A stretch of DNA of 32,000 bases from Nostoc punctiforme PCC 73102. GTDB lineage: Bacteria; Cyanobacteriota; Cyanobacteriia; Cyanobacteriales; Nostocaceae. Shown one piece after another: positions 4,941 to 27,257 of the stretch. A model generated the notes under the pieces. It made no database searches, was not told the origin of the DNA, and saw only the letters and a program-made list of their open reading frames with translations. Where the stretch lies: contig NC_010628.1 in NCBI RefSeq assembly GCF_000020025.1, positions 7,230,001-7,262,000 on the forward strand, read 5' to 3'. Position numbers and translations under genes: made by a program. Within the stretch, counting starts at the first letter, position 1, and the number at the start of each line of letters is the position of its first letter.

Positions 4941-7900
4941 TCACGACCTTGGTCGCAACAATTGCACAAAGGTATCACTCACAGTATGGTCTTTGGTATC
5001 GGCGGCGTATTGAACTAATTTTTCCTTTAGTTCTTTAGCAGCATCTAACGGGAGTAAGGTTGCTAGCAAAAAGTAGACACCACGAAAACGGGGGTCGTCC
5101 ATGTGGTCAAGGAGACGGTTTTTAGCTTCCTCACTCTCGCCGAGAAAGCTTTGCACCAAAAAAAAATCCATAATCTTATCGTGGCGGAAGTACCATTCTC
5201 TCTTGGCTTCGCCTTTTTCGTCTTGCCACTGACGGCTGACAACCATTTTATATTTATCGTCTTCCAAAGACTGTAATACCTGGTAAAATTCATCCGCAGG
5301 TAACGCCTGTTCATCATTCAGCCGCATTTGATAGACAGCATCGGAGAATTTTTTCAGAGGAAATTCTTGTTTCCATTCTTGCAAATATTCTGCTGCCATC
5401 AATTGATATTGATGTTGTTGCAAGTGAAACAAATCGGGGTATTCGCCTTGGGATAGCATCAGGGCTACCACAGTTAAATCCATTGGATTAGAGAGAACCT
5501 TCTCGATGGCGCTTAATTCTTGTGGTGATTGCTGATTACTAAGGGCTTTGGTTAAAAAACTAGCAGTGGCTTGCTCATAATCAGTACCTTGAACTTTGGC
5601 ATTTTTGGGCAGTCGTGGCTGACGGGAAATCAGAAATTGCTGAATTTGTGGTTCCTCAAGGGGCAGCAATTTATATATTTTGGCTGTTGAGGGTGGTGTC
5701 CACTCTAGCGGTTGGGTGGTCATGATGATGTTACCCCGGAAATAGCTTTCGGCAAACTGACAGATTTTTGCTCTAGTGTCGGCGGTAACTTCATTGAGTC
5801 CGTCAATGCAAATATCTAATGCGCCACTGTAAATTAAATTCTTGAGAAAATCAGCATCTTGTGCTTGTCCGTGCAGCTTGGCTTGAATTGCCTCAATTAC
5901 CCCTTTGTCACACTTGCGCGCAGGTAGATAAACCACAAGCCGCCCAGAAGTTTTTACCAAATAGCGCAGAAACATTGACTTACCCAAGCCAGAATCACCT
6001 TCTAAGATGACTTGTCCTTTGATGTTAGGTAGCACTTGAGTAATTTGTACGGGTTCGTCTACACCGGGAACTTTCACTTTAGAATTTGGGAAGTAAGCTT
6101 CGGGGTTAAAATTATCTAACCCGGCATCGGCTAGTAGGGAAGGCTTGAAGGGTTCAAATAACTTTTCGCGAAAAAAAGGAACCCAGGTGAGAATTAAGCC
6201 GACGTAGCCGACACCGAGAATACGCCTCACCCAAGGGTTCCAGAAGAAGATGGCTTGAACTTGGGGAAATTTGGGATAAGCAAAGATGAGGACAAGCCAA
6301 AAGGCAGCGTGAATCAAAATAGTAGTTCTGGCGTTGAACAACCACTGCCAAGTTTTGAGGTTAATTATTACTGATTGCAACGAATCAGCTTCGTTGTAGC
6401 CGACGTTTTTAAGGTTGTTGTAGTGAGTTTCTAAGATAACAATATCTTGTGGTTGCCAAGAGACTTTTCTCGCAACCACAGCAATTTGCTTTGCCAAGTC
6501 TTCCTGTAAACGCACTAATTCTTTACTAGGTTCCCAAATTTTGCGAAAAACCTCTAGTGTTTTCACTCCTTCATCGTGGTTTAGCTTCTCAGGAATTGTT
6601 TTAGGTCTGCCTAGCCATTTAAGCAGTGTTGTGACATCTTCAGTGCCACCCCCCAGAAAATATGTAGAGAATCGCCACTGTTGAAATTCAGATTGTCCCA
6701 CGTAATAAACGTTATCCAAAATGACAATAACGCTATTCAGGTCTAGTTGTTCTATTTTTTCTAAAGCTCTTGCAAGGTTAGAACGAAGTGAAGTTTCAAT
6801 AGATTTATCCTTGAGAATCTTAACAATATCTTTCACGTAAGGTTGAGCAACTTTTCCCAAATTACCTAAGGCATATACTGCCATTGATTTATCAACTTGA
6901 CTAGAGATTTGATTCTCAATGGTTTTATCTTGGATGAAATCGAGGATATCTTTGATATATGGTTGAGCTGCTTCTTCCAAGTAACTCAATGCATAAGCGG
7001 CGCTAGAGCGAAATGAAGGCTCAACAGATTTATCCTTAAGGATGTCAGTAATATCTTTGGCGTAAGGTTTAGCAGCATCTCCTAAATCGCTCAATGCATT
7101 AGCCGCACTGGAACGAAGCGAATTATCGACGGATTTATCCTTAAGGATGTCAGCAATATCTTTGACGTAGAGTTTAGCAGCATCTCCTAAATTGCTCAAT
7201 GCATTAGCCGCACTAGAACGAAGCGAATTATCGACGGATTTATCCTTAAGGATGTCAGCAATATCTTTGACGTAAGGTTTAGCAGCATCTCCTAAATTGC
7301 TCAATGCATTAGCCGCACTGGAACGAAGCGAATTATCGACGGATTTATCCTTAAGGATGTCAGCAATATCTTTGACGTAGAGTTTAGCAGCATCTCCTAA
7401 ATTATCTAAGGTAGGAGCTATCTGGGAACGAATAGCGGAGTCAACAGATTTATTTTTGAAGATATTAACAATATCTTGAGCGTAGGGTTGGGTAGCTTTT
7501 CCTGTGTTAACCAAAGCATCAACTACAGTGGAACGAACATCAACATCAACAGTTTTATCTTGAATGAAGTTGAGGATATCTTTGATGTATGGTTGGGTAG
7601 CTTGTCCGAAATATGCAAATACAAATGCTGCACGGGAGCGAACTTGGGCATCAGCTGTTTTATCTTTAAGGATGTTAGCAATCTCTTTGAGATAGGGTTT
7701 GGCAGCATCTCCCAGATTTGCTAGTGGGGAAAATCTACTAGCAGAATAGTTACCACTACTGAAATAAATAGTAATAGAGGAGTCGGTGTTTTTATGCTTA
7801 AGAAAATCGGTTATATCTTTGATATATGGTTTGGCCGGTTCTCCCAAGTTGGCCAATACCAATATCAAATTGAAACCAGTAGAAAAATCAACAGATTGAT

Positions 7901-8396
7901 CCTTAAGAATATCAACAATATCTTTGACGTAGGGTTTAGGAGCATCGCCCAAGTTTCCTAATACAGATGCTGCACCAGCGCGAACCGAAACTTTCACAGA
8001 TTTATCTTTAAGGATAGCTGCGATATCTTTGACATAGGGTTTAGCCAAATCCCCCAGATTGCTTAACGCGTATCCTGCACTAACACGAATCGATGTTGCA
8101 ACAGATTTATCTTTAAAAATACTGAGAATTTTTCTGGCTATGTCTTCTGGTTTTTTCACCAGAGTTTTTAAGTCTTGCATCTCATATTGACTGACTTGAT
8201 CCAGAGCCAGAGACTTCACTCCCTCATGTCTATCATCAAGAGCAGCAACAATACCGTTAATCTGCCATGCTTCTGGTTTAGGCTTGGGCTGTTCTTTGGC
8301 GCTTACCCAAGGCAGCGCGAGGAGGAGTGTCAATAGCAGGATAAAGGGAAAAAGGAAAAATGGCGACGATCGCTTTTTAATTATGTGCAGATACAT
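4941..8396 (-). CDS. Membrane-associated HEAT-repeat / NACHT-type (STAND) P-loop NTPase, 1151 aa
   Basis: N-terminal hydrophobic segment (KKRSSPFFLFPFILLLTLLLALPWVSA). About 13 HEAT/PBS-lyase-like repeats of roughly 35-37 aa follow (xKDIxxILKDKSVxxxxRxxAAxALxNLGxxAxPY), at nt ~6760-8150. Two hydrophobic helices lie at nt ~6170-6335. Walker A is GDSGLGKS (nt 5977-5999). The NACHT-style Walker B is LDICIDGLNEV (nt ~5791-5823). An IIMTTQP motif and an NPMDLTVVALM winged-helix-like motif are also present. Confidence 0.8.
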   Translation of the reverse strand: MYLHIIKKRSSPFFLFPFILLLTLLLALPWVSAKEQPKPKPEAWQINGIVAALDDRHEGVKSLALDQVSQYEMQDLKTLVKKPEDIARKILSIFKDKSVATSIRVSAGYALSNLGDLAKPYVKDIAAILKDKSVKVSVRAGAASVLGNLGDAPKPYVKDIVDILKDQSVDFSTGFNLILVLANLGEPAKPYIKDITDFLKHKNTDSSITIYFSSGNYSASRFSPLANLGDAAKPYLKEIANILKDKTADAQVRSRAAFVFAYFGQATQPYIKDILNFIQDKTVDVDVRSTVVDALVNTGKATQPYAQDIVNIFKNKSVDSAIRSQIAPTLDNLGDAAKLYVKDIADILKDKSVDNSLRSSAANALSNLGDAAKPYVKDIADILKDKSVDNSLRSSAANALSNLGDAAKLYVKDIADILKDKSVDNSLRSSAANALSDLGDAAKPYAKDITDILKDKSVEPSFRSSAAYALSYLEEAAQPYIKDILDFIQDKTIENQISSQVDKSMAVYALGNLGKVAQPYVKDIVKILKDKSIETSLRSNLARALEKIEQLDLNSVIVILDNVYYVGQSEFQQWRFSTYFLGGGTEDVTTLLKWLGRPKTIPEKLNHDEGVKTLEVFRKIWEPSKELVRLQEDLAKQIAVVARKVSWQPQDIVILETHYNNLKNVGYNEADSLQSVIINLKTWQWLFNARTTILIHAAFWLVLIFAYPKFPQVQAIFFWNPWVRRILGVGYVGLILTWVPFFREKLFEPFKPSLLADAGLDNFNPEAYFPNSKVKVPGVDEPVQITQVLPNIKGQVILEGDSGLGKSMFLRYLVKTSGRLVVYLPARKCDKGVIEAIQAKLHGQAQDADFLKNLIYSGALDICIDGLNEVTADTRAKICQFAESYFRGNIIMTTQPLEWTPPSTAKIYKLLPLEEPQIQQFLISRQPRLPKNAKVQGTDYEQATASFLTKALSNQQSPQELSAIEKVLSNPMDLTVVALMLSQGEYPDLFHLQQHQYQLMAAEYLQEWKQEFPLKKFSDAVYQMRLNDEQALPADEFYQVLQSLEDDKYKMVVSRQWQDEKGEAKREWYFRHDKIMDFFLVQSFLGESEEAKNRLLDHMDDPRFRGVYFLLATLLPLDAAKELKEKLVQYAADTKDHTVSDTFVQLLRPRS
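7026..7410. repeat. Intragenic 105-bp (35-aa) near-identical tandem repeat, about 3.7 copies
   Basis: The anchor ggatttatcc recurs at 7131, 7236 and 7341, with a diverged copy at 7026. Copies differ at only a few bases and encode VKDIADILKDKSVDNSLRSSAANALSNLGDAAK(P/L)Y. Confidence 0.9.
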
Positions 8397-8706: not shown

Positions 8707-9564
8707 ATGTCTTTTGATAACCTCTGCAAACTACTGTCCGAAAAACATCCTGCTACCTTTGCCAGTTGGGTTTTAGGTACACCACAAACTTCTGTCAAAG
8801 TCCTCAAAACCGAATTGAGCATTGAACCAATTCGCGCTGATTATGTAACATTCTTACAACTACAAGGACGCATTCTCCATCTGGAATTTCAAACCAAACT
8901 CGAATCTACGCCACCCCTACCCCTGCGGATGCTAGATTATTGGGTACGCTTATATCGTTTGTATCGTCTGCCAATAACGCAAGTTGTCGTATTATTGCTT
9001 CCCCCTGCACCAGGAACAGTAATTGAAACTGTTTTCTGTGTCGAAACTACCCGTCATGAATATCGCGTGATTCGCCTATGGGAAGAAAATCCTGAACTAT
9101 TCCTCAATGAGCCAGCTTTGTTACCCTTAGCACCACTGGCGGCAACCACGCAACCCCAAGCATTGTTGCAACAAGTTGTGGGCAAAGTTAATCAACTTGA
9201 GCCAAGACAACGACCAGAAATTTCCGCGTATACCCAAATCTTAGCGGGGTTAAAATACAATCAAGACTTGATTCGACAATTATTTCGGGAGGGTATGATG
9301 CGCGAGTCAGTAATTTATCAAGAAATTCTCGCTGAAGGCGAACAACTAGGAGAACTAAGAGGACGAAAAGCAGAAGGGCAATTGCTCATTCTCCGTCAAC
9401 TTACTCGACGGGTGGGAGAATTACCCCAAGAGATGCTAAACCGGATTGAAACTCTCTCCTTAGAACAATTAGAAAATCTCGGTGAAGCATTGTTAGATTT
9501 TCAGGCGATCGCGGATTTAGAAGCCTGGTTTGGTACATTAGACATAGGAGTGAAAATGACGTAA
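8707..9564 (+). CDS. Rpn-family recombination-promoting nuclease / putative transposase-like protein with a DUF4351-type C-terminus
   Basis: The N-terminus (MSFDNLCKLLSEKHPATFASWVLG...LKTELSIEPIRADYVTFLQ...ILHLEFQT) and the C-terminal ESVIYQEILAEGEQ...LSLEQLENLGEALLDF match my memory of a multi-copy cyanobacterial family. This is recognition by recall, not by search. Confidence 0.65.
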   Translation: MSFDNLCKLLSEKHPATFASWVLGTPQTSVKVLKTELSIEPIRADYVTFLQLQGRILHLEFQTKLESTPPLPLRMLDYWVRLYRLYRLPITQVVVLLLPPAPGTVIETVFCVETTRHEYRVIRLWEENPELFLNEPALLPLAPLAATTQPQALLQQVVGKVNQLEPRQRPEISAYTQILAGLKYNQDLIRQLFREGMMRESVIYQEILAEGEQLGELRGRKAEGQLLILRQLTRRVGELPQEMLNRIETLSLEQLENLGEALLDFQAIADLEAWFGTLDIGVKMT

Positions 9565-9737: not shown

Positions 9738-10076
9738 TTAGAGTTCAATTAGCTTGAATCCCCAAGGTTTGAGAGCTGCTAAAGCTATTTCTTCACTTAC
9801 ACCCTCATAAGCTTCCCATTCCAACGGATGCTCTTTTGGATGTCCGTCGCCGACATTACCTGCAACTTTAATTATCGGACAGTTGGCGATGCGATCGCGC
9901 TCCAACCCTTTTGGCACTACTAGTTGGATTTTGTGACCGATAAACTTCGCTGTACTTTCTTCAGCAATCGATTCACGGATTAAACAAATATCACCAGCAG
10001 TTCCCCAAGTAGTTTGGTAAATGTGGAGGAATGATATATAGGTTGCTGGTTTAATGGATCTTTTTAGAACATGCAT
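9738..10076 (-). CDS. Hypothetical protein (112 aa)
   Basis: Uninterrupted ATG-initiated frame with ordinary composition. No motif recognised. Confidence 0.45.
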   Translation of the reverse strand: MHVLKRSIKPATYISFLHIYQTTWGTAGDICLIRESIAEESTAKFIGHKIQLVVPKGLERDRIANCPIIKVAGNVGDGHPKEHPLEWEAYEGVSEEIALAALKPWGFKLIEL

Positions 10077-10432: not shown

Positions 10433-12958
10433 CTAAAATACGATAATCGCCCACATACTAGCTCCCAAAGCGATCGCTGCTAAGTGTTGCCAGAGGAGGG
10501 ATTTCACTGGTTGCCGTGCAATCTTTTGCGTTAATAACATAGTCATCAACACTGAGAAAATTATTGTTGTACCTTGCAAAAAGGCAATTACAGCCGGGTG
10601 AGCAACCAATATTGGCAATTGTTCACCACTCAAACCAAGGGTAGCAAAGGTAACAGGTAAAATTCGCCCACCTTCGCCTAAACCCAAACGCAGATAGTGA
10701 GCCAAGTTTCCCCCTAACACCAATGGTAGGTAGCTATACGCAAGTTCGACAAATTTTCGAGGCTTACGGTTAACGTTGAACACTTGTAGCAAGCCATAAG
10801 CCCCAAAGGTAAATATCGCTGGAATAATTAATACTAGCAGCGATAATCCGAAGTGCAGCCAAAACTGAGTTAAATCCAGTTGTAAACCCAACCAAGATTG
10901 CAATTCTGGCAAGCGATGCAGATATATCCCACCCAACAGCAAAAACAATAATGCTACTTCATAGGTGCGAGGTACATGAGTTGTCCACAATTCAATTCCA
11001 GGGGGACGCAAGTTGAACTCAACAGAACGATGGGGACAGGCTTTAAGGCAAGTCATACACAGTACGCAATCTCTGTTATCTTCTAATTGCGCTGGGTGAG
11101 AATACAAGGGACATCCATTAGTTTCTAGCCCTTCGCCCTTTTGCGGTCCACCTTTATAGCATTGATAAGTAGTACAACTAGCAGAACATATCCCTTGCTG
11201 TGCGCGAAGTTCCGTCATTGAAAGTTTGGCAAACAAACCATTCATTCCACCAATGGGGCAAAGATAACGACACCAAAACCGCCGCTCAAAAAGAGCAGAG
11301 AAAATCATCGCCCCAGCAGTAATTAATAGCAGCAAACAAGCACTGAGGTAGGCGGTATTTTCTAAATGCCAGAGTTCTTCCCATAAGAAAATTAGGGTGA
11401 ACAAACCAAACATGAACCATCCGCCCCATTTCTCAGCTTGCTCTCTCGGCCAGCGTTTGAGTTTTCGAGGCCACAGCCAGAGAGATAACTTTTGGGTAAT
11501 TTCCCCGTAAATCATGAAGGGACAAACAGAACACCAGATACGTCCCAAAAAGGGAAAGAGAAATAAGAAGAAAGGCCACCACCAAGCCCAAAATAGATTT
11601 AATACGAAATTGCGATCGCGGGTTTGCGGCCCAATAAATAAAACTGCAACAATAATCGCAAAAGCTGTTGCAGTAAAACCATAGTTAATGCGATCGGGCC
11701 ACCAAGGACTACGCAAAAACCGCCGCAAATTAGGATAGGCATTTAACAGATTCACCCGAAATCGTTTTTTCTTCGCTTCGGCTGGCCAGAAAATTTCTTC
11801 TGTTAATTCATTAGCACCTTCCGCTTGCACGATCGCTCTTTCAACCAGATTTTTCAATTCCTTGAGGTTCCCAGGAAAATCATAAGACTGGAGGCGACGC
11901 AAAGCTTCTGGGGTAATATGCGGTTTCGGAACGCCTCTAGAGCGAATGTAGAGACTTGTATAATACTCAACCTGCGCCTGAATATCAGCTTTCCGCACCC
12001 GTAGCGGCGGTACTTTAATAATGTGACCAATACAGCGTTCAATTGTCGGCTGAGTTTTTTCGGAAACAATCAGAATTCTGGCTTTACTAGGGCGAGGTTC
12101 CGGTGCTGGTTCTCCAGAACGAGCCACGGGGGTATATGTGCCAGTTTTGAGTAACTGCGTCACGGGAGGCAATAATTCTTCGGGCAATTCTTGGATGTTG
12201 TTGAGAACTAGAGTACCTTCCCCCAACCATTCCAATAGTCCTGGTTTACCGCCAGCGCGACCAAATAAGTCTGCGCCGCTAGTTTGCAGAATACCGCAAT
12301 TTACTTTAATGATTGGTTCTCGCCGTTTTGGAGAACCAAAGTGGATGAGAGCTGCTATATTGTCTTTTTCTAATCCTGGTTCTCCGAAAATATCCACTGA
12401 TTTGCGGTCAGCAGCCGCTTCTCGAATTTGCTCCCGCAGACGCACAGCATATCGACTTGTACCGACAATACCTCGTTGGGCTTTGGTAACTAAATATGGC
12501 CGCAAAGCTACAGAACGTTCTTGTTCATAGCCAAGTGCAGATGTTGCCTGAGCTAATTCTTGAGCCAATTGACGCGAAAAAGCCTGAGCAATTTCGGGGT
12601 ATTGGGTGACTAATTTCCGAAATTTATCAGCAGGTACAACCCACAAATGACATTCAGTTACTGTAGTAATTGTGAATGGAGTTAATTCTTCCAGCAGCAA
12701 TTCTTTGAGTTCAATCACTGCACCGGGGAGAAATCCACAAGCTAAGGCTGGGTTGCTTTGATTGGTGCTATTGCTTTCGAGTTGACCTTCTACAAGAATA
12801 TAAAGGGCTTCTGGAGAATTGCCTTCACTAACCAAGTCAGTTTCGGCTGGTACAACTTGTTCTTCAATTACTTGTGCGATCGCATTTAACACTTCAGGCG
12901 AGAGAATTCCTAAAGTGGTGCGTTCTTGTAGCCATATAACCGTTTCTGGAGATGTCAT
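10433..12958 (-). CDS. Fusion protein: cyclic-nucleotide-binding domain + degenerate sigma54-interaction-type AAA+ module + polytopic membrane domain with Fe-S cysteine motifs
   Basis: aa ~15-125 look like a cNMP-binding fold. aa ~163-380 are colinear with NtrC-type AAA+ domains (IVGTSRYAVRLREQI..., YDFPGNLKELKNLVERA). Within that module the P-loop is GEPGLEK (nt 12365-12385), Walker B is LVLNNI, and no GAFTGA motif is present. aa ~420-841 contain about 9-10 TM helices with WCSVCPF, FWCRYLCPIGG and CVLCMTCLKACP motifs (NapH/NosR-like plus ferredoxin-like). Confidence 0.8.
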   Translation of the reverse strand: MTSPETVIWLQERTTLGILSPEVLNAIAQVIEEQVVPAETDLVSEGNSPEALYILVEGQLESNSTNQSNPALACGFLPGAVIELKELLLEELTPFTITTVTECHLWVVPADKFRKLVTQYPEIAQAFSRQLAQELAQATSALGYEQERSVALRPYLVTKAQRGIVGTSRYAVRLREQIREAAADRKSVDIFGEPGLEKDNIAALIHFGSPKRREPIIKVNCGILQTSGADLFGRAGGKPGLLEWLGEGTLVLNNIQELPEELLPPVTQLLKTGTYTPVARSGEPAPEPRPSKARILIVSEKTQPTIERCIGHIIKVPPLRVRKADIQAQVEYYTSLYIRSRGVPKPHITPEALRRLQSYDFPGNLKELKNLVERAIVQAEGANELTEEIFWPAEAKKKRFRVNLLNAYPNLRRFLRSPWWPDRINYGFTATAFAIIVAVLFIGPQTRDRNFVLNLFWAWWWPFFLFLFPFLGRIWCSVCPFMIYGEITQKLSLWLWPRKLKRWPREQAEKWGGWFMFGLFTLIFLWEELWHLENTAYLSACLLLLITAGAMIFSALFERRFWCRYLCPIGGMNGLFAKLSMTELRAQQGICSASCTTYQCYKGGPQKGEGLETNGCPLYSHPAQLEDNRDCVLCMTCLKACPHRSVEFNLRPPGIELWTTHVPRTYEVALLFLLLGGIYLHRLPELQSWLGLQLDLTQFWLHFGLSLLVLIIPAIFTFGAYGLLQVFNVNRKPRKFVELAYSYLPLVLGGNLAHYLRLGLGEGGRILPVTFATLGLSGEQLPILVAHPAVIAFLQGTTIIFSVLMTMLLTQKIARQPVKSLLWQHLAAIALGASMWAIIVF

Positions 12959-14096: not shown

Positions 14097-16295
14097 CTAC
14101 ATACGTTTTAAATCTTGTAAAACTGCGGCGGCTGATTGATAGCGATCGCTAAAATGATAGCAAACCATTTTATCTAAAATGACCGCCAATTCTTCCCTGA
14201 CTGGCACTGTTTGCCGCCACATCACATTCCCCGTTTCTGGATCTGGGTGGAGTTCTTGCGGTGGTATTCCAGTTATGGCTTGAATACCAATCATTCCTAA
14301 AGCGTAAATGTCACTGCATAGACGGGGATGACCGGCAAATTGTTCTGGAGGTGCATAACCCCGCGTCCCAATGGCTACTGTGGCTAATTCTGTTTGGTCG
14401 CTAGTCGGTGGTTGCATTAATTTGACTGCACCAAAGTCAATCAATACCAGCCGATTATCTTGAGCGCATCTAATAATATTAGTTGGTTTGATATCACGAT
14501 GAATCACTCGATGCTGGTGAACAAATTCTAGAACTTCTAAAACTTGTTTGAACATCTCTATGACAAATAATTCGCTTTGCACATCCTGTACAGGTGGTAA
14601 TTCTTCACTTAAAGTATGTCCTTCAATATATTGTTGAATTAAATAGAATTCTTGGTCATCTTCAAAATAAGCAAGTAATTCAGGAATCTGATGATGTTTA
14701 CCCAAAGATTCTAATATTTCAGCTTCACTATGAAACAATCTACGAGCAACTTGCAAAAATCGTGTATCTTGACGGGCTGGCATTAACTTTTTAACTACAC
14801 AAGTAGGATTACCCGGTCGTTGAGTATCCTGTGCTAAATAAGTGCGACCAAACCCGCCTGAACCAAGAACTTGAGACATTTTGTAGCGTCCACCCAAAAG
14901 CAAATCACCTGATTTTATTTCTGGTGAATCAATTGGAGCAGGAAAGTCAAGAGACGAATCGGGAATTGCGGTTTTGTCTTCTAAGAGTATATTTAATTGT
15001 GCGATCGCTTCTTGTTGTTTTTCAACTTGCAGAATAATCACCTGAGTTTGTCGCTGATTTTGGTAGCTAGTATAAGCAATTACACAAATACTACTAACAA
15101 CCAAAGTAAGAGCAGAGGGAATTAAAGGCACCCATCCAGCCTGCAAAAACAAACCAATGCAGATTCCTACTAACCCAAGTAGAGCTGTTCCTCCCACCAC
15201 TAGCAACAGCAAGGGATTTTGCCACCGCCATACGATAATTCCACCTAAAAGCGACCAGCCCCACATCCAAATAAATTCTACCCAGTCGGGCCAATACCAA
15301 ATTAAAGGTCGCCCATCCAACACTGTACTGATGAGTTGACTTGCTATCTGTGCATGAATAAACAGAGCAGGCATTCTGGCTGGTTGATCTGGCAAAGTGC
15401 TGTAGGGTGTATAAAATCCGCCTGGGGGTAAATTAGCCGCAGTAGTGCCGATAATTACAAGACGGTCTTTGAATAAACTGGAGTTAACTTGACCACTGAG
15501 GACTTGCGTAAGGGTTACTTGATCGGCAAAACTGTTAGGGTGACGATAATTTAATAATATTTGATAGCCATCTGTATCCAGATGTTGATAGCTACCGGAA
15601 TTAGGTTGTAAACGCGGAAAGAGGGTTTTACCTAACTGTAATTCTTTTTTATTAGTAAACTTGTATTCAATACCTTGTTTCTCTAGATAATTAATTCCTA
15701 TTAGCGCCCCAAAAGCAAATGATGTTGTACATTTATTGTCTGTAGAGTAAGCAAATAACAAACTACGACGGAGAATTTGGTCGTTTTCATTGTCAGAAAC
15801 AACATCGCTAAACCCAACATTATCTATAGGAAAATTGGGTGGTGGTGGAATTTCATCTCTACCCAAACTGCTGAACAAACAAGTGCTGACAATGTTATCT
15901 TGATTTTGAAAATTAATTGCCAAATTGTTATTTTCTGGTTGAAAAAGATATAAACCAACAATTCGCGGTTGATAAGACTCGATTTTTTTTAATAGCTGAT
16001 TAATTGTCCGATCTGATAAAGCCCATTTCTCTCGTTTGAGATCGTCGTCAGTGATTTTTACTAGTAAAATCCGCCGATCGGGTGCTTGTGCTGGACGCGA
16101 TCGCAACATTTCATCATAAACTCTTAACTCCCAAGGCTGTAACCATTTGAGTTCCCGAATTCCCCAGATAAACACGGTGACTCCCACACTGGTAACTAAA
16201 ATAATTTGCAACCAGCTTTTGTTGTTGGAAGTTTCACGGGAATCCTGAACTTTGACAAAAGGGACACGGAGTTTTTTTAATAGTCCACTAATCAC
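14097..16295 (-). CDS. CHASE2 sensor-domain Ser/Thr protein kinase
   Basis: N-terminal TM, an extracytoplasmic CHASE2-like region, then 3-4 TM helices. The C-terminal Hanks kinase (nt ~14097-14888) has GSGGFGRTY, VVKKL, HRDIKPTNI, DFG and GTRGYAPPE. The start codon at 16295 is GTG. Confidence 0.88.
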   Translation of the reverse strand: MISGLLKKLRVPFVKVQDSRETSNNKSWLQIILVTSVGVTVFIWGIRELKWLQPWELRVYDEMLRSRPAQAPDRRILLVKITDDDLKREKWALSDRTINQLLKKIESYQPRIVGLYLFQPENNNLAINFQNQDNIVSTCLFSSLGRDEIPPPPNFPIDNVGFSDVVSDNENDQILRRSLLFAYSTDNKCTTSFAFGALIGINYLEKQGIEYKFTNKKELQLGKTLFPRLQPNSGSYQHLDTDGYQILLNYRHPNSFADQVTLTQVLSGQVNSSLFKDRLVIIGTTAANLPPGGFYTPYSTLPDQPARMPALFIHAQIASQLISTVLDGRPLIWYWPDWVEFIWMWGWSLLGGIIVWRWQNPLLLLVVGGTALLGLVGICIGLFLQAGWVPLIPSALTLVVSSICVIAYTSYQNQRQTQVIILQVEKQQEAIAQLNILLEDKTAIPDSSLDFPAPIDSPEIKSGDLLLGGRYKMSQVLGSGGFGRTYLAQDTQRPGNPTCVVKKLMPARQDTRFLQVARRLFHSEAEILESLGKHHQIPELLAYFEDDQEFYLIQQYIEGHTLSEELPPVQDVQSELFVIEMFKQVLEVLEFVHQHRVIHRDIKPTNIIRCAQDNRLVLIDFGAVKLMQPPTSDQTELATVAIGTRGYAPPEQFAGHPRLCSDIYALGMIGIQAITGIPPQELHPDPETGNVMWRQTVPVREELAVILDKMVCYHFSDRYQSAAAVLQDLKRM

Positions 16296-17582: not shown

Positions 17583-18671
17583 CTATTTTTCACTTATCAG
17601 TGTTGGTGGAGTAATAGCTGCATATTCTTTGGATGTCAGCAGTGCTTCCTGAACATCAATCTTTTTGGGCAAGATTTTTTCGTTATAAAATAAATCGGCA
17701 ACACTTTGTTGAGCTTTCATCAACTCTGGATTAATTCCTTTTAATCGATAATTAGCGCGTCCAGAAATTATTTCTTGAATGGGTAAATCAATTTTAAGTA
17801 TGGGTGATATGAGTTTGGCTACTTCTTGACGATTTGCTTCCGCCCATTGACCATTTTTATCAATCTCTTCCAAGATAATCCGAAGTAATTCGGGATTTTC
17901 CTTAGCAAACTCCCGTGTTCCTACATAGTATCCGCCTGGAGTACCAATATTAGTAGCATCTCGCAGTACCCGCGCACCGTGGAGTTTTTCTACCAAAGCT
18001 AAATGAGGATCGCCAGTTACCCAAACTGGAATAGTGCCCTGAATAAATGCACCACGGGCTTCGACATTGGGCATACTCAGAACTTGAATATCATTGTATT
18101 TCAAGCCCACTTCTTCTAAAGCTTTGATAATGAAATAGTGAGAAGCTGAACCTTTTTGAAAGACTACTTTTTGTCCTTTGATTTGTGCTAAACTCTTAAT
18201 TGGAGAACCTTTAGGAACTACGATCGCACTCCCTTTCCCAGAAGTGGCAGTAATTCGTCTACCAGCAAGATAGACAATTCTTGCACCAGCAGCTTGGGCA
18301 AAAATAGGAGGGGTTTCTCCAACTGAACCAACATCAATTTTGCCGACATTCATCGCTTCTATGAGTTGCGGCCCTTGGGCAAATTGTGCCCATTCAACTT
18401 TCACACCCAAGGGTTCCAAACGTTTTTCTAAAACTCCTCTCACTCTAACTAAATCACCAGAACTTTGATATCCCATTCTCAGAAGTTTTGTTTTAAAACT
18501 AATGGTTTTTGTTGCTGCTGGATCTGCTTTTGGTTCGGTTGCGCTATTTATATTATCACTGGGTGATGTACAACTGGTTAGTGTGGTAGATAAAGCCAAA
18601 AAACCAGGCATTACAAACAATGCCAATCTTCTAATAATTGGTGATTTTTTTACTACAGTATTGCTCAACAT
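17583..18671 (-). CDS. SsuA/NMT1-type (aliphatic sulfonate family) ABC substrate-binding lipoprotein, copy 1
   Basis: Lipobox LTSC after an RR-containing signal peptide. Family-typical GYQSSGDL...WAQFAQGPQLIEAMNVGKIDVGSVGETPPIFAQAAGA. Confidence 0.8.
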   Translation of the reverse strand: MLSNTVVKKSPIIRRLALFVMPGFLALSTTLTSCTSPSDNINSATEPKADPAATKTISFKTKLLRMGYQSSGDLVRVRGVLEKRLEPLGVKVEWAQFAQGPQLIEAMNVGKIDVGSVGETPPIFAQAAGARIVYLAGRRITATSGKGSAIVVPKGSPIKSLAQIKGQKVVFQKGSASHYFIIKALEEVGLKYNDIQVLSMPNVEARGAFIQGTIPVWVTGDPHLALVEKLHGARVLRDATNIGTPGGYYVGTREFAKENPELLRIILEEIDKNGQWAEANRQEVAKLISPILKIDLPIQEIISGRANYRLKGINPELMKAQQSVADLFYNEKILPKKIDVQEALLTSKEYAAITPPTLISEK

Positions 18672-18762
18672 TTCTACAACTCCAGGCTAAATTAATCTCT
18701 GCTCTTAAGAAAAGATAAGTTTTTAAATTATTAAATTCAAGCTTGATAACTTTAATAATTTA

Positions 18763-19968
18763 CTATTTTGATTTAATTGATTCTGGTATAAAAGCCGCAT
18801 ATTCTTTTGGAGTTAATACACCATCTCTAACATTAACTTTCTTTGGTAAGAGTCCTTGGCTGTACCACAAATCGGCAATTTGTTGTTGCTTAGTGACAAC
18901 CTGTTCAGTAATTGGTAGCAACCCATAAACTGATTTAGCTTGAATCTCCTTCAAGGTAGGAACATCAATACCAACATCAGGAGAAACAAGTTCTGCTAAT
19001 TTATCGGGGTTCTTTTTAGACCACTCGTCTGCTTTTGTAAGCTCCTCCAGGAAAATTTTGAGAACTTCAGGATGCTCTTTTGCAAATTTACGCGAGGTAG
19101 AATAAAAGCTTCCAATATCCTGGAGTCCTTGCCCATCTATTAATACACGACCAATATTTTTTTGTATGGCTCTTGTAATATATGGTTCCCAAGTTACCCA
19201 AACATCAAGTCCACCCTGGCTAAAAGCAACATTTGCATCTGGAGGTGGTAAAAAAATAGATTGAACATCAGTGAGCTTTAGCTTATCTTTTTGTAGTGCT
19301 TTCAGTAAAACATAGTGAGCAATAGAAGCTTTTTGAAAAGAAACTTTTTTGCCTTTAAAGTCAGCAGCACTTTTAATTGGAGAGTTTTTTGGCACCAGAA
19401 AAGAAACTCCTCTACCATTAAATGCTGTAGTTACTACATAGACAAGTGGTGTACCTGCTGCTTGAGCAAATATAGGTGGTGATTCAGCTGTGGCTGCAAT
19501 GTCAAGAGAACCTGCGTTTAATGCTTCTAAAGCTTGCGGCCCAGCAGCAAACTCTAACCACTTAACAGTAAAATTCTTCGCTACCAAACTTTTTTCTAAA
19601 GTTCCTTGTTTCCTCATAACTGCAAGAGAACCAAGCTTAGAAGAAACAATTCGCACTTCTTGCTTTTGGGGAGTATTAGAAACTGATTGGCTTTGAGCTT
19701 CTGTACTAATTGGAGATGCTTCGTTTTGAGTTGTTTTATTTTCTTGGCTGCAACCAACTATGCTTATTGGGATTGTGAGAGAGAAAGCAGCTACAAGTAA
19801 AGATAAATAGTTACGTTCAATTTTATATTTAGCTTCTGCTTTGATAGCTAGGCTTTTATTAGATATCAGATTTACTGTTCGCAAAAAATGCTTTAAATTC
19901 TCGATTTTAGATTTTATCGGCTTGTTAATAGATATATGAGATTGCTGCAAATCTTTAAAAAATGCCAT
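18763..19968 (-). CDS. SsuA/NMT1-type substrate-binding lipoprotein, copy 2
   Basis: Lipobox IVGC. Family-typical WLEFAAGPQALEALNAGSLDIAATAESPPIFAQAAGTPLVY. Close paralog of 21433..22539. An unusually long Lys-rich segment of ~50 aa precedes the signal helix, so the true start is uncertain. Confidence 0.78.
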   Translation of the reverse strand: MAFFKDLQQSHISINKPIKSKIENLKHFLRTVNLISNKSLAIKAEAKYKIERNYLSLLVAAFSLTIPISIVGCSQENKTTQNEASPISTEAQSQSVSNTPQKQEVRIVSSKLGSLAVMRKQGTLEKSLVAKNFTVKWLEFAAGPQALEALNAGSLDIAATAESPPIFAQAAGTPLVYVVTTAFNGRGVSFLVPKNSPIKSAADFKGKKVSFQKASIAHYVLLKALQKDKLKLTDVQSIFLPPPDANVAFSQGGLDVWVTWEPYITRAIQKNIGRVLIDGQGLQDIGSFYSTSRKFAKEHPEVLKIFLEELTKADEWSKKNPDKLAELVSPDVGIDVPTLKEIQAKSVYGLLPITEQVVTKQQQIADLWYSQGLLPKKVNVRDGVLTPKEYAAFIPESIKSK

Positions 19969-20100
19969 AAAACTCTATTGTCTCCTTCAATAGAAAACTT
20001 TTTACTGTAATATTGTGTTTAACCAAATTGGTTATTAAATACAGTTTATATCTCAATACGGTTCAGTTAAGGTTAGCGCTCTTTGCCAAAGTCATTTTTT

Positions 20101-20147
20101 TTAATGAACCGCAGAGGCACAGAGTACACAGAGAGAATAAAGAGAAG
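20101..20147. repeat. Half-copy of the aacgaaccRcagaggcRcagag dispersed element
   Basis: ttaatgaaccgcagaggcacagagtacacagagagaat is similar to the left arm of the element at 23713-23843. Confidence 0.7.
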
Positions 20148-20531
20148 GGAAAAATTGCTTGATTGAACTGTATTGGTTTATATATTATCGGATTTGGTCT
20201 TGGAATAAAGTGTTAATAAACACTACCTGGCAGAGATAATAATATTTTTTGTAAATTTACTTTTGTGAGTGTGCTTTATCAATATTTATTTTACTAGCCA
20301 AAGGTAAAATAGAGTTTATATTTGGTTTTTTAAAAATCTGCACAACTCAAAAAGGTTTATTTACTATTATTAATATTAGGTTTCACGATAAAAAGAGATT
20401 ACTATATAGATCGTTATGATAAATTAGGGTTTTTTATTGTCTAGTTTAGGAACGAGGGTGGTAGTCATCCACCCTATCTTTAAAAGCAGATTTTAGGTTT
20501 TAAAAGCGTTATAACTGTCTAAAGAATAAAC

Positions 20532-21395
20532 CTAAAAAGGACGGCTACCTGCAAGACTAACTCGCTTCAAAACCCGTCGCTCATTTGGATCAAATGCTTG
20601 ACGGTAATGCAAGGTAGCTTGATTATCCCAGTAGACAATATCACCTACAGACCATTTATGTTGGTAGTAGAATTTGGGTTGATTTAGATGCTGGCGCAAC
20701 TGCTCAATCAGTTTAGATTCTTCTTCTGGCTCTAACCCGACAACTTCCACTTCTGTAGCTGCATCTAAGTAAAGATGCTTTTTACCACTTTCTGGATGTG
20801 TTCTAACTAAAGGATGGGGAAAGATCGGACTGATTAAAGGAATAGTTTTGTCTAAACGATATAAAGAGCGGGGTGCATTCCGATCTCGCAAAAATGGGTT
20901 GTAGGTAATCAACTGCAAATCTGCAATCCGTTCTTTGGTGGTTTCATCTAACGCCTCATAGGCCAAATTTGTATTTAACCAATAAGTATTTCCACCTTGA
21001 GAAGGTATTTCCAAAGCATAAAGCAGCGAACCACTAGATGGAGTGGGAGTCCATTTGTGGTCAGAATGGAAAGTTAGTTCTCCAGTACCGGTATAGCCGC
21101 CATCGACATTAGAAATCGGAATCACCACTGGGGTTTCTCCTGGTTTAGAAGCCAATACTGGAGTTTCATCAGATGGTACAAAGAGTGCGCCAAAGTAGAG
21201 AGAAAAGTTCAAAAGTTCTTTATCGGAGAGCTTTTGGTCTTTGAAAATTAAGATGTGGCGATCGCGCAGTGCTTGCTTAAGTTGTAATATAACTTCAGGT
21301 GCGATCGCTTGACTGGCATCAAGATCGGTAACTATCGTTCCCAAAGGAGCATCGATAGGACTTATTTTAACCTTGGTCAAAGTCGAGGTAGGCAT
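20532..21395 (-). CDS. TauD/TfdA-family Fe(II)/2-oxoglutarate dioxygenase (taurine/alkylsulfate dioxygenase-like)
   Basis: HxD iron ligands in TFHSDHKW. The distal motif VYWDNQATLHYRQ resembles the WDNRxxxHxA of TauD. It starts 37 nt downstream of the preceding binding-protein gene. Confidence 0.8.
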   Translation of the reverse strand: MPTSTLTKVKISPIDAPLGTIVTDLDASQAIAPEVILQLKQALRDRHILIFKDQKLSDKELLNFSLYFGALFVPSDETPVLASKPGETPVVIPISNVDGGYTGTGELTFHSDHKWTPTPSSGSLLYALEIPSQGGNTYWLNTNLAYEALDETTKERIADLQLITYNPFLRDRNAPRSLYRLDKTIPLISPIFPHPLVRTHPESGKKHLYLDAATEVEVVGLEPEEESKLIEQLRQHLNQPKFYYQHKWSVGDIVYWDNQATLHYRQAFDPNERRVLKRVSLAGSRPF

Positions 21396-21432
21396 AATAT
21401 TCTCCTGTCTTTTAATTTCTTCTTGGGTATAA

Positions 21433-22539: not shown

Positions 22540-22678
22540 GGGTTGTTTTATTGATTTCCTTTAGGTGGTTAGAAAATGATGATTAATTGCAGTATCAAGA
22601 ACGAAAATGTTTTTTTGAAAACTCCAATCAGTAAATGTTTTTATAACTTCAAAAACTTTACTTATGAAATTAGGGAAG

Positions 22679-22774
22679 AGAGTGGGTATTACCCACTCTG
22701 CAACGACTCGAGGAACTGAAACTTTAATACTTAGGAGGCAAAAATTTAGGAAATGGAGTGAGAAAGGCTCACTC
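22679..22774 (-). other. Two perfect stem-loops in the methyltransferase / binding-protein intergenic region (possible terminators or RNA elements)
   Basis: The first is agagtgggt-att-acccactct at 22679-22699. The second is ggagtgag-aaagg-ctcactcc at 22754-22774. Both lie downstream of the stop at 22841. Confidence 0.3.
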
Positions 22775-22840
22775 CAGTGTCGTGCTAGTGGAAGATTGAA
22801 ATTTTTGAGTGAAACTCTGTTTTGTCAGCGTTCAATTTTG

Positions 22841-27254: not shown

Positions 27255-27257
27255 AAA

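What the first reader, a model, noticed from the sequence alone, without database searches (positions are those of the whole stretch)
10433..12958. cNMP-binding + catalytically degenerate sigma54-activator AAA+ module fused to a Fe-S membrane domain, in a phylum without sigma54
The central ~220 aa are colinear with NtrC-type enhancer-binding-protein AAA+ domains, down to YDFPGNLKELKNLVERA. Every catalytic or coupling signature is nonetheless altered. Walker A GESGTGK becomes GEPGLEK. Walker B LFLDEI becomes LVLNNI. The sigma54-contacting GAFTGA loop is replaced by RAGGKPG. The C-terminal DNA-binding HTH is replaced by ~420 aa with about 9-10 TM helices and NapH/NosR-like CxxCP / CxxxCP plus ferredoxin-like CxxCxxCxxxCP motifs. 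Cyanobacteria encode only sigma70-family sigma factors, so this module cannot act as an enhancer-binding protein. A cyclic-nucleotide-gated, redox-active membrane protein that uses a pseudo-AAA+ scaffold would be an undescribed signalling architecture.
Basis: partly seen in the sequence, partly recalled or inferred. Interest (0 to 1): 0.7.

Follow-up and report, generated by a model that had tools for sequence, protein, structure and literature searches.

The report
Membrane iron-sulfur protein with dead ATPase
This Nostoc gene encodes an unstudied membrane protein, probably iron-sulfur binding, attached to an ATPase-like domain that can no longer burn ATP; the protein is conserved from cyanobacteria to green algae, and its "cyclic-nucleotide sensor" has lost the residues needed to bind cyclic nucleotides.

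Summary
ORF 10433-12958 (-) encodes an 841-aa protein identical to Nostoc punctiforme PCC 73102 ACC84161. It has four parts: a cNMP_binding-like domain, a Sigma54_activat/AAA_lid module, a NapH-like Cys-rich core of four membrane helices with a ferredoxin-like segment, and five more membrane helices. The Walker A, Walker B, GAFTGA and sensor II changes are all real.

The interpretation needs three corrections.
1. The cNMP domain is also degenerate. Its phosphate-binding cassette has no Gly-Glu and no Arg, and many algal orthologs lack the domain. "Cyclic-nucleotide-gated" is therefore unsupported for this protein.
2. The architecture is not specific to cyanobacteria. Full-length relatives (27-33% identity) occur in anammox Planctomycetota, Desulfobacterota, Nitrospirota, Bacillota and Acidobacteriota. 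None of 79 keeps the Walker B Asp-Glu, so the dead ATPase is ancestral and not a consequence of lacking sigma54.
3. The clade extends to nuclear genes of green algae (45-52% identity) and Chromera. No land-plant ortholog was found.

Conservation peaks in the Cys/ferredoxin membrane core, and the N-terminal input domains are interchangeable. The best reading is a NapH-type membrane redox effector organised by a non-hydrolysing AAA+ scaffold derived from enhancer-binding proteins. I found no publication on it. The physiological role is unknown.

The parts
10433..12958 (-). Complete gene, 841 aa plus stop codon. Identical to Nostoc punctiforme PCC 73102 ACC84161.1.
   Evidence: Orthologs share the same N-terminus and length.
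12599..12856 (-). CNB-like domain, residues 35-120: the cyclic-nucleotide-binding fold without a functional binding cassette.
   Evidence: Pfam cNMP_binding E 1.5e-11. It is the least conserved part of the protein: identity to the query is 0.43 overall and 0.15 in algae.
12659..12727 (-). Residues 78-100, PGAVIELKELLLEELTPFTITTV: the segment holding the degenerate phosphate-binding cassette (residues 82-95). The Gly-Glu pair and the Arg-Ser/Thr-Ala triplet are all substituted.
   Evidence: Alignment to PKA 5j3u and MloK1, comparison with the distant tier's FGEMALLTGEPRSASV, and clade-wide conservation of the loss.
12494..12595 (-). Long linker helix, residues 122-155, joining the CNB-like domain to the AAA+ module. 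It ends in the conserved EQER..ALRPY junction.
   Evidence: AlphaFold2 helix H122-155. L152, P154 and Y155 are invariant or nearly so. In the long variants this helix is duplicated together with the AAA+ module.
12023..12469 (-). EBP-type AAA+ alpha/beta subdomain, residues 164-312, with its catalytic residues lost.
   Evidence: Sigma54_activat E 2.8e-11, PDB sequence matches to VpsR, NifA and PspF, and Foldseek target-normalised TM-scores of 0.65-0.73.
12362..12385 (-). Walker-A-like GEPGLEKD, residues 192-199. The P-loop Lys is kept, but the Gly before it is Glu.
   Evidence: G192, E193, G195, L196 and K198 are invariant. Position 197 varies across orthologs: E in 202, G in 25, D in 6, others Q/C/R/N/M, out of 257.
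12239..12259 (-). RAGGKPG, residues 234-240: the shortened L1 loop in place of the GAFTGA sigma54-contact loop.
   Evidence: An 8-residue gap relative to NifA and PspF. Distant relatives keep a full-length loop, some with GAFSFA remnants.
12191..12214 (-). Walker-B-like TLVLNNIQ, residues 249-256. Asp-Glu is replaced by Asn-Asn.
   Evidence: The pair is NN in 191 orthologs and never DE. It is DE in 0 of 79 distant-tier representatives.
11798..12001 (-). AAA+ lid subdomain, residues 320-387, including the sensor-II-like GNLKEL (363-368, window 11855-11872) in which Arg is replaced by Lys.
   Evidence: AAA_lid_14 E 1.6e-13. Invariant residues are listed and sensor II variants.
11204..11704 (-). 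NapH-like membrane core, residues 419-585: membrane helices 1-4, with CSVCP (476-480, window 11519-11533) and CRYLCP (563-568, window 11255-11272) on the cytoplasmic face.
   Evidence: Two Fer4_5 stretches, NapH/MauN TIGR02163, topology, and identity to the query of 0.77.
11009..11203 (-). Ferredoxin-like Cys-rich segment, residues 586-650: C591, C595, C600, C616-P, then C631xxC634xxC637xxxC641-P. It probably binds two [4Fe-4S] clusters.
   Evidence: Weak Fer4-family hits and a weak profile match to dicluster ferredoxins in the PDB. This is the most conserved part of the protein, at 0.85. AlphaFold2 models residues 587-634 poorly.
10436..10978 (-). C-terminal bundle of five membrane helices, residues 661-841, with invariant H661, E667, H681, H702, Y741, Y743 and P745. 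It matches no known family.
   Evidence: AlphaFold2 helices, invariant residues, no Pfam hit, and homology across the superfamily.

Best explanation
The gene encodes a member of a large, uncharacterised superfamily.

The conserved working part is a NapH-type membrane module. It has nine membrane helices and twelve invariant cysteines, all on the cytoplasmic face (stromal in algae). These most likely bind two [4Fe-4S] clusters, plus a third cluster, metal or thiol site formed by the CxxCP and CxxxCP motifs. This module probably moves electrons between a cytoplasmic donor and the membrane, either to the quinone pool or to a substrate at the membrane surface.

A conserved linker helix couples this module to an AAA+ domain derived from sigma54 enhancer-binding proteins. 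That domain lost ATP hydrolysis (the Walker B Asp-Glu) in the common ancestor of the superfamily. It now acts as a non-catalytic oligomerisation or transmission scaffold and may still bind nucleotide in some members.

The N-terminal domain is an interchangeable input. In distant relatives it is a genuine cNMP, GAF, FHA or receiver sensor. In the cyanobacterial and algal clade, to which this protein belongs, the CNB-like input has lost the cNMP cassette and is dispensable in many algae. This protein is therefore probably not gated by cyclic nucleotides and is certainly not a transcription activator.

Shown: domain identities, motif states, conservation pattern, phyletic spread and topology. Inferred: cofactor binding, the direction of signal flow, oligomerisation and the redox function.
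For: - Domain calls and motif alignments.
- The conservation gradient puts the functional centre in the membrane Cys core. Identity to the query is 0.85 for the ferredoxin-like segment, 0.77 for the TM1-4/Cys core, 0.62-0.65 for AAA+, and 0.43 for CNB (0.15 in algae).
- The four Cys motifs are near-universal across 92 representatives and invariant in alignments A1, A2 and A3.
- Inputs are shuffled in front of a constant AAA+/Fer4_5 core: CNB, CNB+GAF, FHA+GAF, FHA+CNB, HisKA+REC and AIM24+CNB.
- Anammox loci have a CHASE2 adenylate/guanylate cyclase gene 34-36 nt upstream on the same strand. This supports an input-to-output direction, and real cNMP control where the cassette is intact.
- Walker B Asp-Glu is absent in 0 of 79 distant representatives and in all 257 orthologs, while the fold is EBP-like and the EBP structural signature residues stay invariant.
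- Positive-inside topology places all Cys motifs on the same side as the AAA+ domain.
- Identity of 45-52% between Nostoc and green-algal nuclear orthologs shows strong purifying selection.
Against: - No cofactor, redox activity, oligomeric state or partner has been measured for any member.
- The match to NapH is far below the family cutoff (52.7 against 213 bits), and NapH's own mechanism is poorly understood.
- The invariant Cys-rich segment is modelled with pLDDT below 50. No solved structure resembles the membrane module, so the fold-level argument rests on sequence motifs alone.
- There is no conserved gene neighbourhood in cyanobacteria to hint at a pathway.
- The invariant P-loop Lys and the 10% of orthologs with a canonical GEPGLGK leave open that nucleotide binding, rather than mere scaffolding, is central.
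- Signal could flow the other way, with the Fe-S module as the sensor.
- A knockout of the probable Synechocystis ortholog slr1529 (orthology unverified) grew at a rate not different from the wild type under standard autotrophic conditions.
Confidence: 0.55

Rival explanations
1. One reading: a cyclic-nucleotide-gated redox membrane protein. cAMP or cGMP binds the N-terminal domain and, through the pseudo-AAA+ scaffold, switches the Fe-S membrane domain.
For: The cNMP_binding Pfam match passes its cutoff. Distant relatives often keep a canonical cassette, FGEMALLTGEPRSASV: 24 of 79 by a strict pattern. Anammox relatives sit directly downstream of a cyclase gene. The model is therefore plausible for part of the superfamily.
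Against: In this protein and its whole clade, the cassette lacks the Gly-Glu pair and has no Arg in any alignment register. KCNH-type CNBHDs, which do not bind cNMP, are among the best PDB matches. Chlorophycean algae and Klebsormidium have lost the domain entirely while keeping the rest of the protein.
Confidence: 0.1
2. Reverse signal flow. The membrane Fe-S module is a sensor of quinone-pool redox state, O2 or iron status. The pseudo-AAA+ and CNB-like domains are the output, acting by binding or sequestering a cytoplasmic partner.
For: NosR and NirI, relatives of NapH, were first described as membrane-bound regulators (general knowledge; NCBIfam still names the NosR model 'transcriptional regulator'). 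The EBP signature residues and the P-loop Lys are invariant, as expected for a surface that still binds something. Transcript changes under iron and copper stress are reported for slr1529, whose orthology is unverified.
Against: Variable, interchangeable N-terminal sensor domains and an upstream cyclase indicate that inputs enter at the N-terminus. The most conserved part of a signalling protein is usually its output, which here is the Fe-S core. The L1 loop that contacts partners in EBPs is deleted.
Confidence: 0.2
3. A membrane-tethered, sigma70-dependent transcription regulator, comparable to the atypical EBP-like proteins NtrX, VpsR and TyrR. This is what the database names imply ('sigma 54-interacting transcriptional regulator', 'nitrogen assimilation regulatory protein').
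For: The best sequence and structure matches in the PDB include VpsR and NtrX. From general knowledge, not tested here, both lack a functional GAFTGA loop and act without sigma54. Automatic annotations use these names.
Against: No DNA-binding domain is detected. The position of the HTH is taken by 440 residues of membrane protein. The protein is retained as a nuclear gene in green algae, where several orthologs carry transit-peptide-like leaders; a bacterial-type activator has no evident target there.
Confidence: 0.05
4. A CcoG-like metal reductase or cofactor-assembly factor. The cytoplasm-facing Cys motifs would reduce or hand over Cu or Fe for delivery to membrane or lumenal metalloproteins.
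For: From general knowledge, not tested here, Fer4_5 is shared with the cupric reductase CcoG, and plastocyanin and cytochrome oxidase need Cu(I) delivery. slr1529 mRNA falls to 0.29-fold in 3 uM copper, but its orthology is unverified. Invariant His and Glu residues sit in the C-terminal membrane helices.
Against: No CcoG/FixG NCBIfam or Pfam model (FixG_C, Fer4_18) matches, even at E = 1. The nearest family is NapH/MauN. No metal transporter is a conserved neighbour.
Confidence: 0.1

Closest known systems
NapH / MauN family (membrane ferredoxin-type subunit of the NapGH quinol dehydrogenase)
   Same: Residues ~467-649 align with positions 73-254 of the 255-position NapH/MauN model. The shared features are membrane helices each followed by a cytoplasmic Cys-x(2-3)-Cys-Pro motif, then a cytoplasmic dicluster-ferredoxin-like Cys segment, and two Fer4_5 repeats.
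   Different: The score is far below the family cutoff (52.7 against 213 bits). The first motif is CxxCP rather than CxxxCP, and the first ferredoxin motif has unusual spacing (Cx3Cx4C...CP). There are five extra C-terminal membrane helices and a 400-residue N-terminal CNB/AAA+ extension. There is no NapG or nap operon context.
Bacterial enhancer-binding proteins (NtrC1, PspF, NifA, ZraR)
   Same: The central ~230 residues are colinear with the EBP AAA+ domain and lid in sequence (E 1e-17 to 1e-19) and in fold (target-normalised TM-score 0.65-0.73). They include the GxS, PPLRxR and FPGN..EL signatures. The organisation is input domain, then AAA+, then a C-terminal domain, with a long linker helix.
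   Different: No GAFTGA loop (an 8-residue deletion). Walker A Gly is replaced by Glu, Walker B Asp-Glu by Asn-Asn, and sensor II Arg by Lys. A membrane module replaces the HTH.
Atypical, sigma54-independent EBP-like regulators (Brucella NtrX 5m7n-5m7p; Vibrio VpsR 7v2b)
   Same: They are the top sequence hit (VpsR) and the top fold hit (NtrX). From general knowledge, they are precedents for EBP-type AAA+ domains that have lost GAFTGA and sigma54 coupling and act mainly through ligand-controlled oligomerisation.
   Different: Those proteins are soluble, keep a C-terminal DNA-binding domain and regulate transcription. NtrX was crystallised with ATP and with ADP bound (entry titles). The present family has no DNA-binding domain and is an integral membrane protein.
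Cyclic-nucleotide-binding homology domains (CNBHD) of KCNH/EAG/ELK channels
   Same: They have the CNB fold without a functional phosphate-binding cassette, and they are attached to a membrane protein. They rank third and fourth among PDB sequence matches to residues 1-149 (2mhf and 3ukn).
   Different: The similarity is weak (E 2e-4 to 6e-4). The partner here is a redox-type membrane module, not an ion channel. Whether an 'intrinsic ligand' occupies the pocket is unknown.
NosR / NirI and CcoG (other Fer4_5 membrane polyferredoxins)
   Same: They share the CxxxCP-after-membrane-helix motif family. There is a weak NosR match over residues ~547-596.
   Different: There is no FMN-binding periplasmic domain (NosR) and no FixG_C or Fer4_18 domain (CcoG). 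Neither family model matches significantly.

Membership tests
Sigma54 enhancer-binding protein (bEBP) | AAA+ domain of the Sigma54_activat type (PF00158) | tested here: met
   PF00158 E 2.8e-11, 43.8 bits against a cutoff of 20.2, but only profile positions 1-128 of 168. AAA_lid_14 E 1.6e-13. EBP fold by Foldseek.
Sigma54 enhancer-binding protein (bEBP) | GAFTGA sigma54-contact loop (L1) | tested here: not met
   The loop is 8 residues shorter and reads RAGGKPG. This holds across the clade.
Sigma54 enhancer-binding protein (bEBP) | Catalytic ATPase motifs: Walker A GxxGxGK, Walker B hhhhDE, sensor II Arg | tested here: not met
   GEPGLEKD, TLVLNNIQ and GNLKEL. The Walker B pair is never DE in 257 orthologs.
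Sigma54 enhancer-binding protein (bEBP) | C-terminal DNA-binding HTH | tested here: not met
   No HTH family is detected. Residues 400-841 are a nine-helix membrane module.
Sigma54 enhancer-binding protein (bEBP) | rpoN (sigma54) present in the same genome | not testable with these tools
   Only a 32-kb window is available. Two surveys report that cyanobacteria lack rpoN, with the exceptions Gloeocapsa PCC 7428 and Leptolyngbya O-77. Nostoc punctiforme is not among the exceptions.
Cyclic-nucleotide receptor (functional CNB domain) | CNB beta-barrel fold (PF00027) | tested here: met
   PF00027 E 1.5e-11, residues 35-120. The AlphaFold2 model has beta strands followed by a C-helix.
Cyclic-nucleotide receptor (functional CNB domain) | Phosphate-binding cassette: F-G-E...R-[ST]-A | tested here: not met
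   IELKELLLEELTPF aligns to FGELALLYNAPRAA, and there is no Arg anywhere in residues 78-110. The loss is conserved across the clade.
Cyclic-nucleotide receptor (functional CNB domain) | Measured cAMP or cGMP binding | not testable with these tools
   This needs ITC or equilibrium dialysis on residues 1-150.
NapH / MauN quinol dehydrogenase subunit | Family-level sequence match (TIGR02163 / PRK09477 at or above the cutoff) | tested here: not met
   52.7 bits against a cutoff of 213, and 36.2 against 234. The module is homologous but is not an ortholog.
NapH / MauN quinol dehydrogenase subunit | Four membrane helices with two cytoplasmic Cys-x3-Cys-Pro motifs plus two ferredoxin-type Cys clusters | tested here: inconclusive
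   Membrane helices 1-4 are present with CSVCP and CRYLCP on the 'in' side, along with eight further Cys. However, the first motif is CxxCP, the spacing of the first ferredoxin motif is unusual, and five more membrane helices follow.
NapH / MauN quinol dehydrogenase subunit | NapG partner and nap (or mau) operon context | tested here: not met
   The neighbours are a transaldolase, a CHASE2 kinase and a DUF4351 protein. No nap genes are present, and there is no conserved synteny in other cyanobacteria.
NapH / MauN quinol dehydrogenase subunit | Bound [4Fe-4S] clusters and quinol oxidation | not testable with these tools
   This needs spectroscopy and an activity assay.

The most novel reading that the evidence does not exclude
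The protein is a previously overlooked Fe-S oxidoreductase of oxygenic-phototroph membranes, inherited by green algae with the plastid. It would accept electrons on the cytoplasmic or stromal side and pass them into the membrane, for example an input to the plastoquinone pool or a reductase needed for cofactor or metal delivery. It would be assembled into an oligomer by an AAA+ ring that has been a non-hydrolysing scaffold since before cyanobacteria acquired it. This would be a new functional class: a pseudo-AAA+-organised membrane redox enzyme.
Probability: 0.15. Interest if true: 0.85.

Novelty: new variant of a known kind. Interest (0 to 1): 0.6.

Why it matters
Every domain belongs to a known kind. 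The combination does not: as far as I could find, no member has been characterised in which an AAA+ module derived from enhancer-binding proteins, dead for hydrolysis since the family's origin, is welded to a NapH-type membrane polyferredoxin.

The family is large. In the library of 1.84 billion representatives clustered at 50% identity, 423 match at E <= 1e-30; this count is an upper bound, because it includes partial-length and possibly single-domain matches.

Its cyanobacterial branch is conserved at about 50% identity into green-algal nuclear genomes. That level of constraint usually marks a core function of photosynthetic membranes.

Databases currently name it 'sigma 54-interacting transcriptional regulator' or 'nitrogen assimilation regulatory protein'. 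The first name is contradicted by the tested motifs, and nothing found here supports the second. In Synechocystis the probable ortholog was knocked out as a presumed transcription factor.

Correcting this, and showing that the cNMP domain is a non-binding homology domain in this clade, changes which experiments make sense: Fe-S spectroscopy, redox assays and membrane localisation, rather than DNA binding or cAMP titration. For AAA+ biology, it offers a natural test of what an EBP ring does when it cannot hydrolyse ATP.

Tried and rejected
- **Conserved gene neighbourhood, cyanobacteria.** The window and two long contigs share no neighbours.
- **Conserved gene neighbourhood, distant tier.** Among the 48 distant-tier loci analysed (47 with a full-length gene), clustering the flanking ORFs gave no universal neighbour. 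One Desulfobulbales subclade has an upstream operon of housekeeping genes (hisD, gidB, prs, leuB), which is uninformative.
- **Verifying that Synechocystis slr1529 is the ortholog.** I could not obtain its sequence. The only link is the shared legacy name 'nitrogen assimilation regulatory protein', also carried by family members in Richelia, Volvox and Edaphochlamys. All slr1529 data are therefore treated as leads only. The proteome-map supplements were not held.
- **Land-plant orthologs.** None appeared in the top 120 hits with Trebouxia or Klebsormidium queries. The plant 'Sigma54_activat' class in transcription-factor surveys was not traced to sequences; nine genes expressed in all tissues fits generic AAA+ ATPases better than this family.
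- **Literature.** Ten searches found no description. Subscription journals are not covered.
- **Promoter and terminator scan.** Nothing above chance.
- **Rejected: a decaying pseudogene or relic.** The altered motifs are themselves invariant over more than a billion years of divergence.
- **Rejected: the degeneracy results from cyanobacteria lacking sigma54.** Walker B is lost in all 79 distant-tier representatives, whose genomic relatives lie largely in lineages generally known to use sigma54.

Full report
**What is there.** Window 10433-12958 (minus strand) is a single 841-codon ORF. Its product is identical to ACC84161.1 / WP_012412104.1 / UniProt B2JA86 of Nostoc punctiforme PCC 73102, annotated only as 'cyclic nucleotide-binding protein'.

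Pfam finds these domains:
- cNMP_binding, residues 35-120, E 1.5e-11.
- Sigma54_activat, residues 164-281, E 2.8e-11, above the cutoff but matching only profile positions 1-128 of 168.
- AAA_lid_14, residues 320-387, E 1.6e-13.
- Two Fer4_5 repeats, E 6.7e-9.

NCBIfam aligns residues ~467-649 with NapH/MauN at E 4e-14, far below the family threshold. No DNA-binding domain is found. Hydropathy and the AlphaFold2 model (mean pLDDT 81.5) give nine membrane helices.

**The motif substitutions are real.** HMMER alignments to VpsR, NifA and PspF show four changes:
- GESGTGKE becomes GEPGLEKD.
- TLFLDEI becomes TLVLNNI.
- The L1 loop carrying GAFTGA is 8 residues shorter and reads RAGGKPG.
- PGNVRELEN becomes PGNLKELKN, so the sensor II Arg is Lys.

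Foldseek places the module on EBP AAA+ domains, with target-normalised TM-scores of 0.65-0.73 to NtrC1, PspF and FlrC. This is an EBP-derived AAA+ fold without the catalytic or sigma54-coupling residues.

Against PKA, MloK1 and CAP, the segment 78-100 (PGAVIELKELLLEELTPFTITTV), which holds the cassette, lines up with PGDAFGELALLYNAPRAATVTSV. The Gly-Glu pair and the Arg-Ser/Thr-Ala triplet that hold the cyclic phosphate are all replaced, and no Arg lies in the region under any register. The third and fourth best PDB matches are KCNH-channel CNBHDs, which do not bind cyclic nucleotides. The loss is conserved in all 28 cyanobacterial orthologs examined. The domain is the least conserved part of the protein, with identity to the query of 0.43 overall and 0.15 in algae. 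Many Chlorophyceae and Klebsormidium have dropped it, with only 55-119 residues before the AAA+ module. 'Cyclic-nucleotide-gated' is not supported for this protein.

**The architecture is a large superfamily, not a cyanobacterial oddity.** An exhaustive phmmer search of 1.84 billion representatives gave 423 proteins at E <= 1e-30. They fall into two tiers.

- The close tier (41-64% identity) comprises cyanobacteria, nuclear genes of green algae (Trebouxia, Coccomyxa, Micractinium, Chlorella, Chlamydomonas incerta, Volvox, Gonium, Monoraphidium, Ostreococcus, Picocystis and the streptophyte alga Klebsormidium) and Chromera velia.
- The distant tier (27-33% identity, full length) lies in anammox Planctomycetota, Desulfobacterota, Nitrospirota, Bacillota, Acidobacteriota, Armatimonadota, Elusimicrobia and Dehalococcoidia. 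Several of these lineages, including Desulfobacterota, Planctomycetota, Nitrospirota and Acidobacteriota, are generally known to use sigma54.

No land plant appeared, even with the Klebsormidium query. Several algal proteins start with Ala/Arg/Ser-rich, acid-poor leaders typical of transit peptides. That reading is an inference; I ran no targeting predictor.

**What the comparison says about each module.** Across 79 full-length distant representatives:
- None keeps the Walker B Asp-Glu.
- 42 keep a canonical Walker A.
- 24 keep a strict cNMP cassette.
- 14 keep the sensor II Arg.
- 10 keep a GAFTGA remnant such as GAFSFA.

Loss of hydrolysis is therefore ancestral to the family and independent of whether the host has sigma54.

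Within the cyanobacterial and algal clade the altered P-loop is itself under selection. G192, E193, G195, L196 and K198 are invariant. Only the position before the Lys varies: E in 202 of 257 orthologs, G in 25, D in 6, and Q/C/R/N/M in the rest. The Walker B pair is Asn-Asn in 191 and never Asp-Glu. Hydrolysis is effectively excluded. Nucleotide binding is not.

A 1115-1121-aa cyanobacterial variant (Trichocoleus) carries a tandem duplication of the linker helix plus AAA+ module. Both copies have a canonical GK.

**Where the function sits.** Conservation rises from the N-terminus to the membrane core. Identity to the query is 0.43 for CNB, 0.62-0.65 for AAA+, 0.77 for TM1-4 with the Cys motifs, 0.85 for the ferredoxin-like segment, and 0.59 for the C-terminal membrane bundle. 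Twelve cysteines are invariant or nearly so from Nostoc to algae, and the four Cys motifs are conserved into the distant tier:
- C476 and C479.
- C563 and C567.
- C591, C595, C600 and C616.
- C631, C634, C637 and C641.

By the positive-inside rule, all of them face the cytoplasm, on the same side as the AAA+ domain.

In the distant tier the N-terminal region is swapped freely in front of the same AAA+/Fer4_5 core: CNB, CNB+GAF, FHA+GAF, Zn-ribbon+FHA+CNB, HisKA+REC and AIM24+CNB. In two anammox genomes a CHASE2 adenylate/guanylate cyclase gene ends 34-36 nt upstream on the same strand. This is the pattern of interchangeable inputs feeding a conserved output.

**Mechanism proposed.** The membrane module is a NapH-type redox device. 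It probably holds two [4Fe-4S] clusters plus a CxxCP/CxxxCP site at the membrane surface. The EBP-derived AAA+ domain is a non-hydrolysing oligomerisation or transmission scaffold, controlled through the conserved linker helix 122-155. The N-terminal domain is the input. In this clade the input is no longer a cNMP receptor.

The steps shown are domain identity, motif state, conservation, topology and distribution. The steps inferred are cofactor binding, oligomerisation, the direction of signalling and the physiological redox partners. I put 0.55 on this general model.

The main rival (0.2) reverses the flow, with the Fe-S module as the sensor. A CcoG-like metal reductase role gets 0.1, and a transcription regulator role 0.05.

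**Limits.**
- No solved structure resembles the membrane module.
- AlphaFold2 is least confident exactly at the invariant Cys-rich segment 587-634. A possible reason is that the model is built without cofactors.
- No conserved neighbourhood exists in cyanobacteria.
- The Synechocystis gene slr1529 ('ntrX, nitrogen assimilation regulatory protein') is probably the ortholog, judging by the shared legacy name, but I could not verify this.
- For slr1529, a knockout grew at a rate not different from the wild type and showed metabolite shifts at 72 h. Its mRNA falls under iron deprivation and 3 uM copper.
- Surveys report no sigma54 in cyanobacteria, with two exceptions that are not Nostoc. I could not scan the source genome.

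**Verdict.** The protein is not an enhancer-binding protein, and the current database names 'sigma 54-interacting transcriptional regulator' and 'nitrogen assimilation regulatory protein' are not supported: the first is contradicted by the tested motifs, and the second has no support in anything found here. It is also not demonstrably gated by cyclic nucleotides, and its peculiarity is not tied to the absence of sigma54. It is a member of a widespread, unstudied family whose cyanobacterial branch was inherited by green algae. I found no publication on it in ten searches of the open-access library. I rate it a new variant of known kinds, with interest 0.6.

Noticed in passing
window 14097-16295 (-); L001 49-2301; L036 5551-7965: A CHASE2 + Ser/Thr protein kinase gene lies two genes upstream of the target on the same strand, with a transaldolase gene on the opposite strand in between. 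In anammox relatives, a CHASE2 + adenylate/guanylate cyclase gene sits 34-36 nt upstream of the homologous gene. A recurring CHASE2 association could be coincidence, since other cyanobacterial loci lack it.
   Followed up: partly
P0075, P0107 and P0109 (Trichocoleus and relatives), residues ~120-690: Cyanobacterial variants of 1115-1121 aa carry a tandem duplication of the linker helix plus AAA+ module. Copy 1 has GEAGVGKV / TLVLDHLQ and copy 2 has GEPGLGKD / TLLLNNIQ. Both have a canonical P-loop Gly-Lys, unlike the window protein.
   Followed up: partly
P0122, P0343, P0344, P0337, P0290 and P0171 (proteins): Nuclear-encoded orthologs (38-52% identity) exist in green algae, including Ostreococcus, Chlamydomonas, Volvox, Trebouxia and Klebsormidium (two paralogs), and in Chromera velia. 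No land-plant ortholog was seen. Several carry transit-peptide-like leaders.
   Followed up: partly
P0128 (Spirulina major, 901 aa): A divergent cyanobacterial member (41% identity) keeps a canonical Walker A (GAPGTGKT) and a different cassette region. It may be a second cyanobacterial subfamily or a lateral acquisition.
   Followed up: no
window 17583-30662 (-): A long same-strand cluster that looks like organosulfur or sulfonate scavenging. It has four NMT1-like substrate-binding proteins (17583-18671, 18763-19968, 21433-22539, 27566-28471), a TauD dioxygenase (20532-21395), a methyltransferase (22841-23662) and two Amidohydro_2 proteins (23979-27119). It also has a 540-aa FAD flavoprotein of the fumarate-reductase/AprA type (29040-30662) whose end overlaps by 4 nt the start of a 109-aa 2x[4Fe-4S] ferredoxin (28714-29043).
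   Followed up: no
window 4941-8396 (-): A 1151-aa protein made of HEAT / PBS-lyase-like repeats, with a Vitellogenin_N-like match.
   Followed up: no
window 8707-9564 (+) and 9738-10076 (-): A DUF4351 protein, and a 112-aa ORF without any Pfam match directly downstream of the target gene. A contig carrying the identical target protein (L081) has a different downstream neighbour, so this flank varies between strains.
   Followed up: no
residues 587-634 of the protein (window 11057-11200): AlphaFold2 gives pLDDT below 50 for exactly the invariant Cys-rich segment, in both the full-length and the domain-only models. The surrounding membrane helices are modelled confidently. A possible reason is a fold that depends on its cofactor.
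   Followed up: partly
literature (PMC12316311): A 2025 survey reports rpoN genes in two cyanobacteria: Gloeocapsa sp. PCC 7428 (Glo7428_4143) and Leptolyngbya sp. O-77. The statement that cyanobacteria have no sigma54 is therefore not absolute.
   Followed up: no
window 12138-12530 (+): A 130-aa ORF lies antisense inside the target gene. It is probably spurious. Separately, an antisense RNA co-regulated with the mRNA was reported for Synechocystis slr1529, the probable ortholog (PMC3516471).
   Followed up: no
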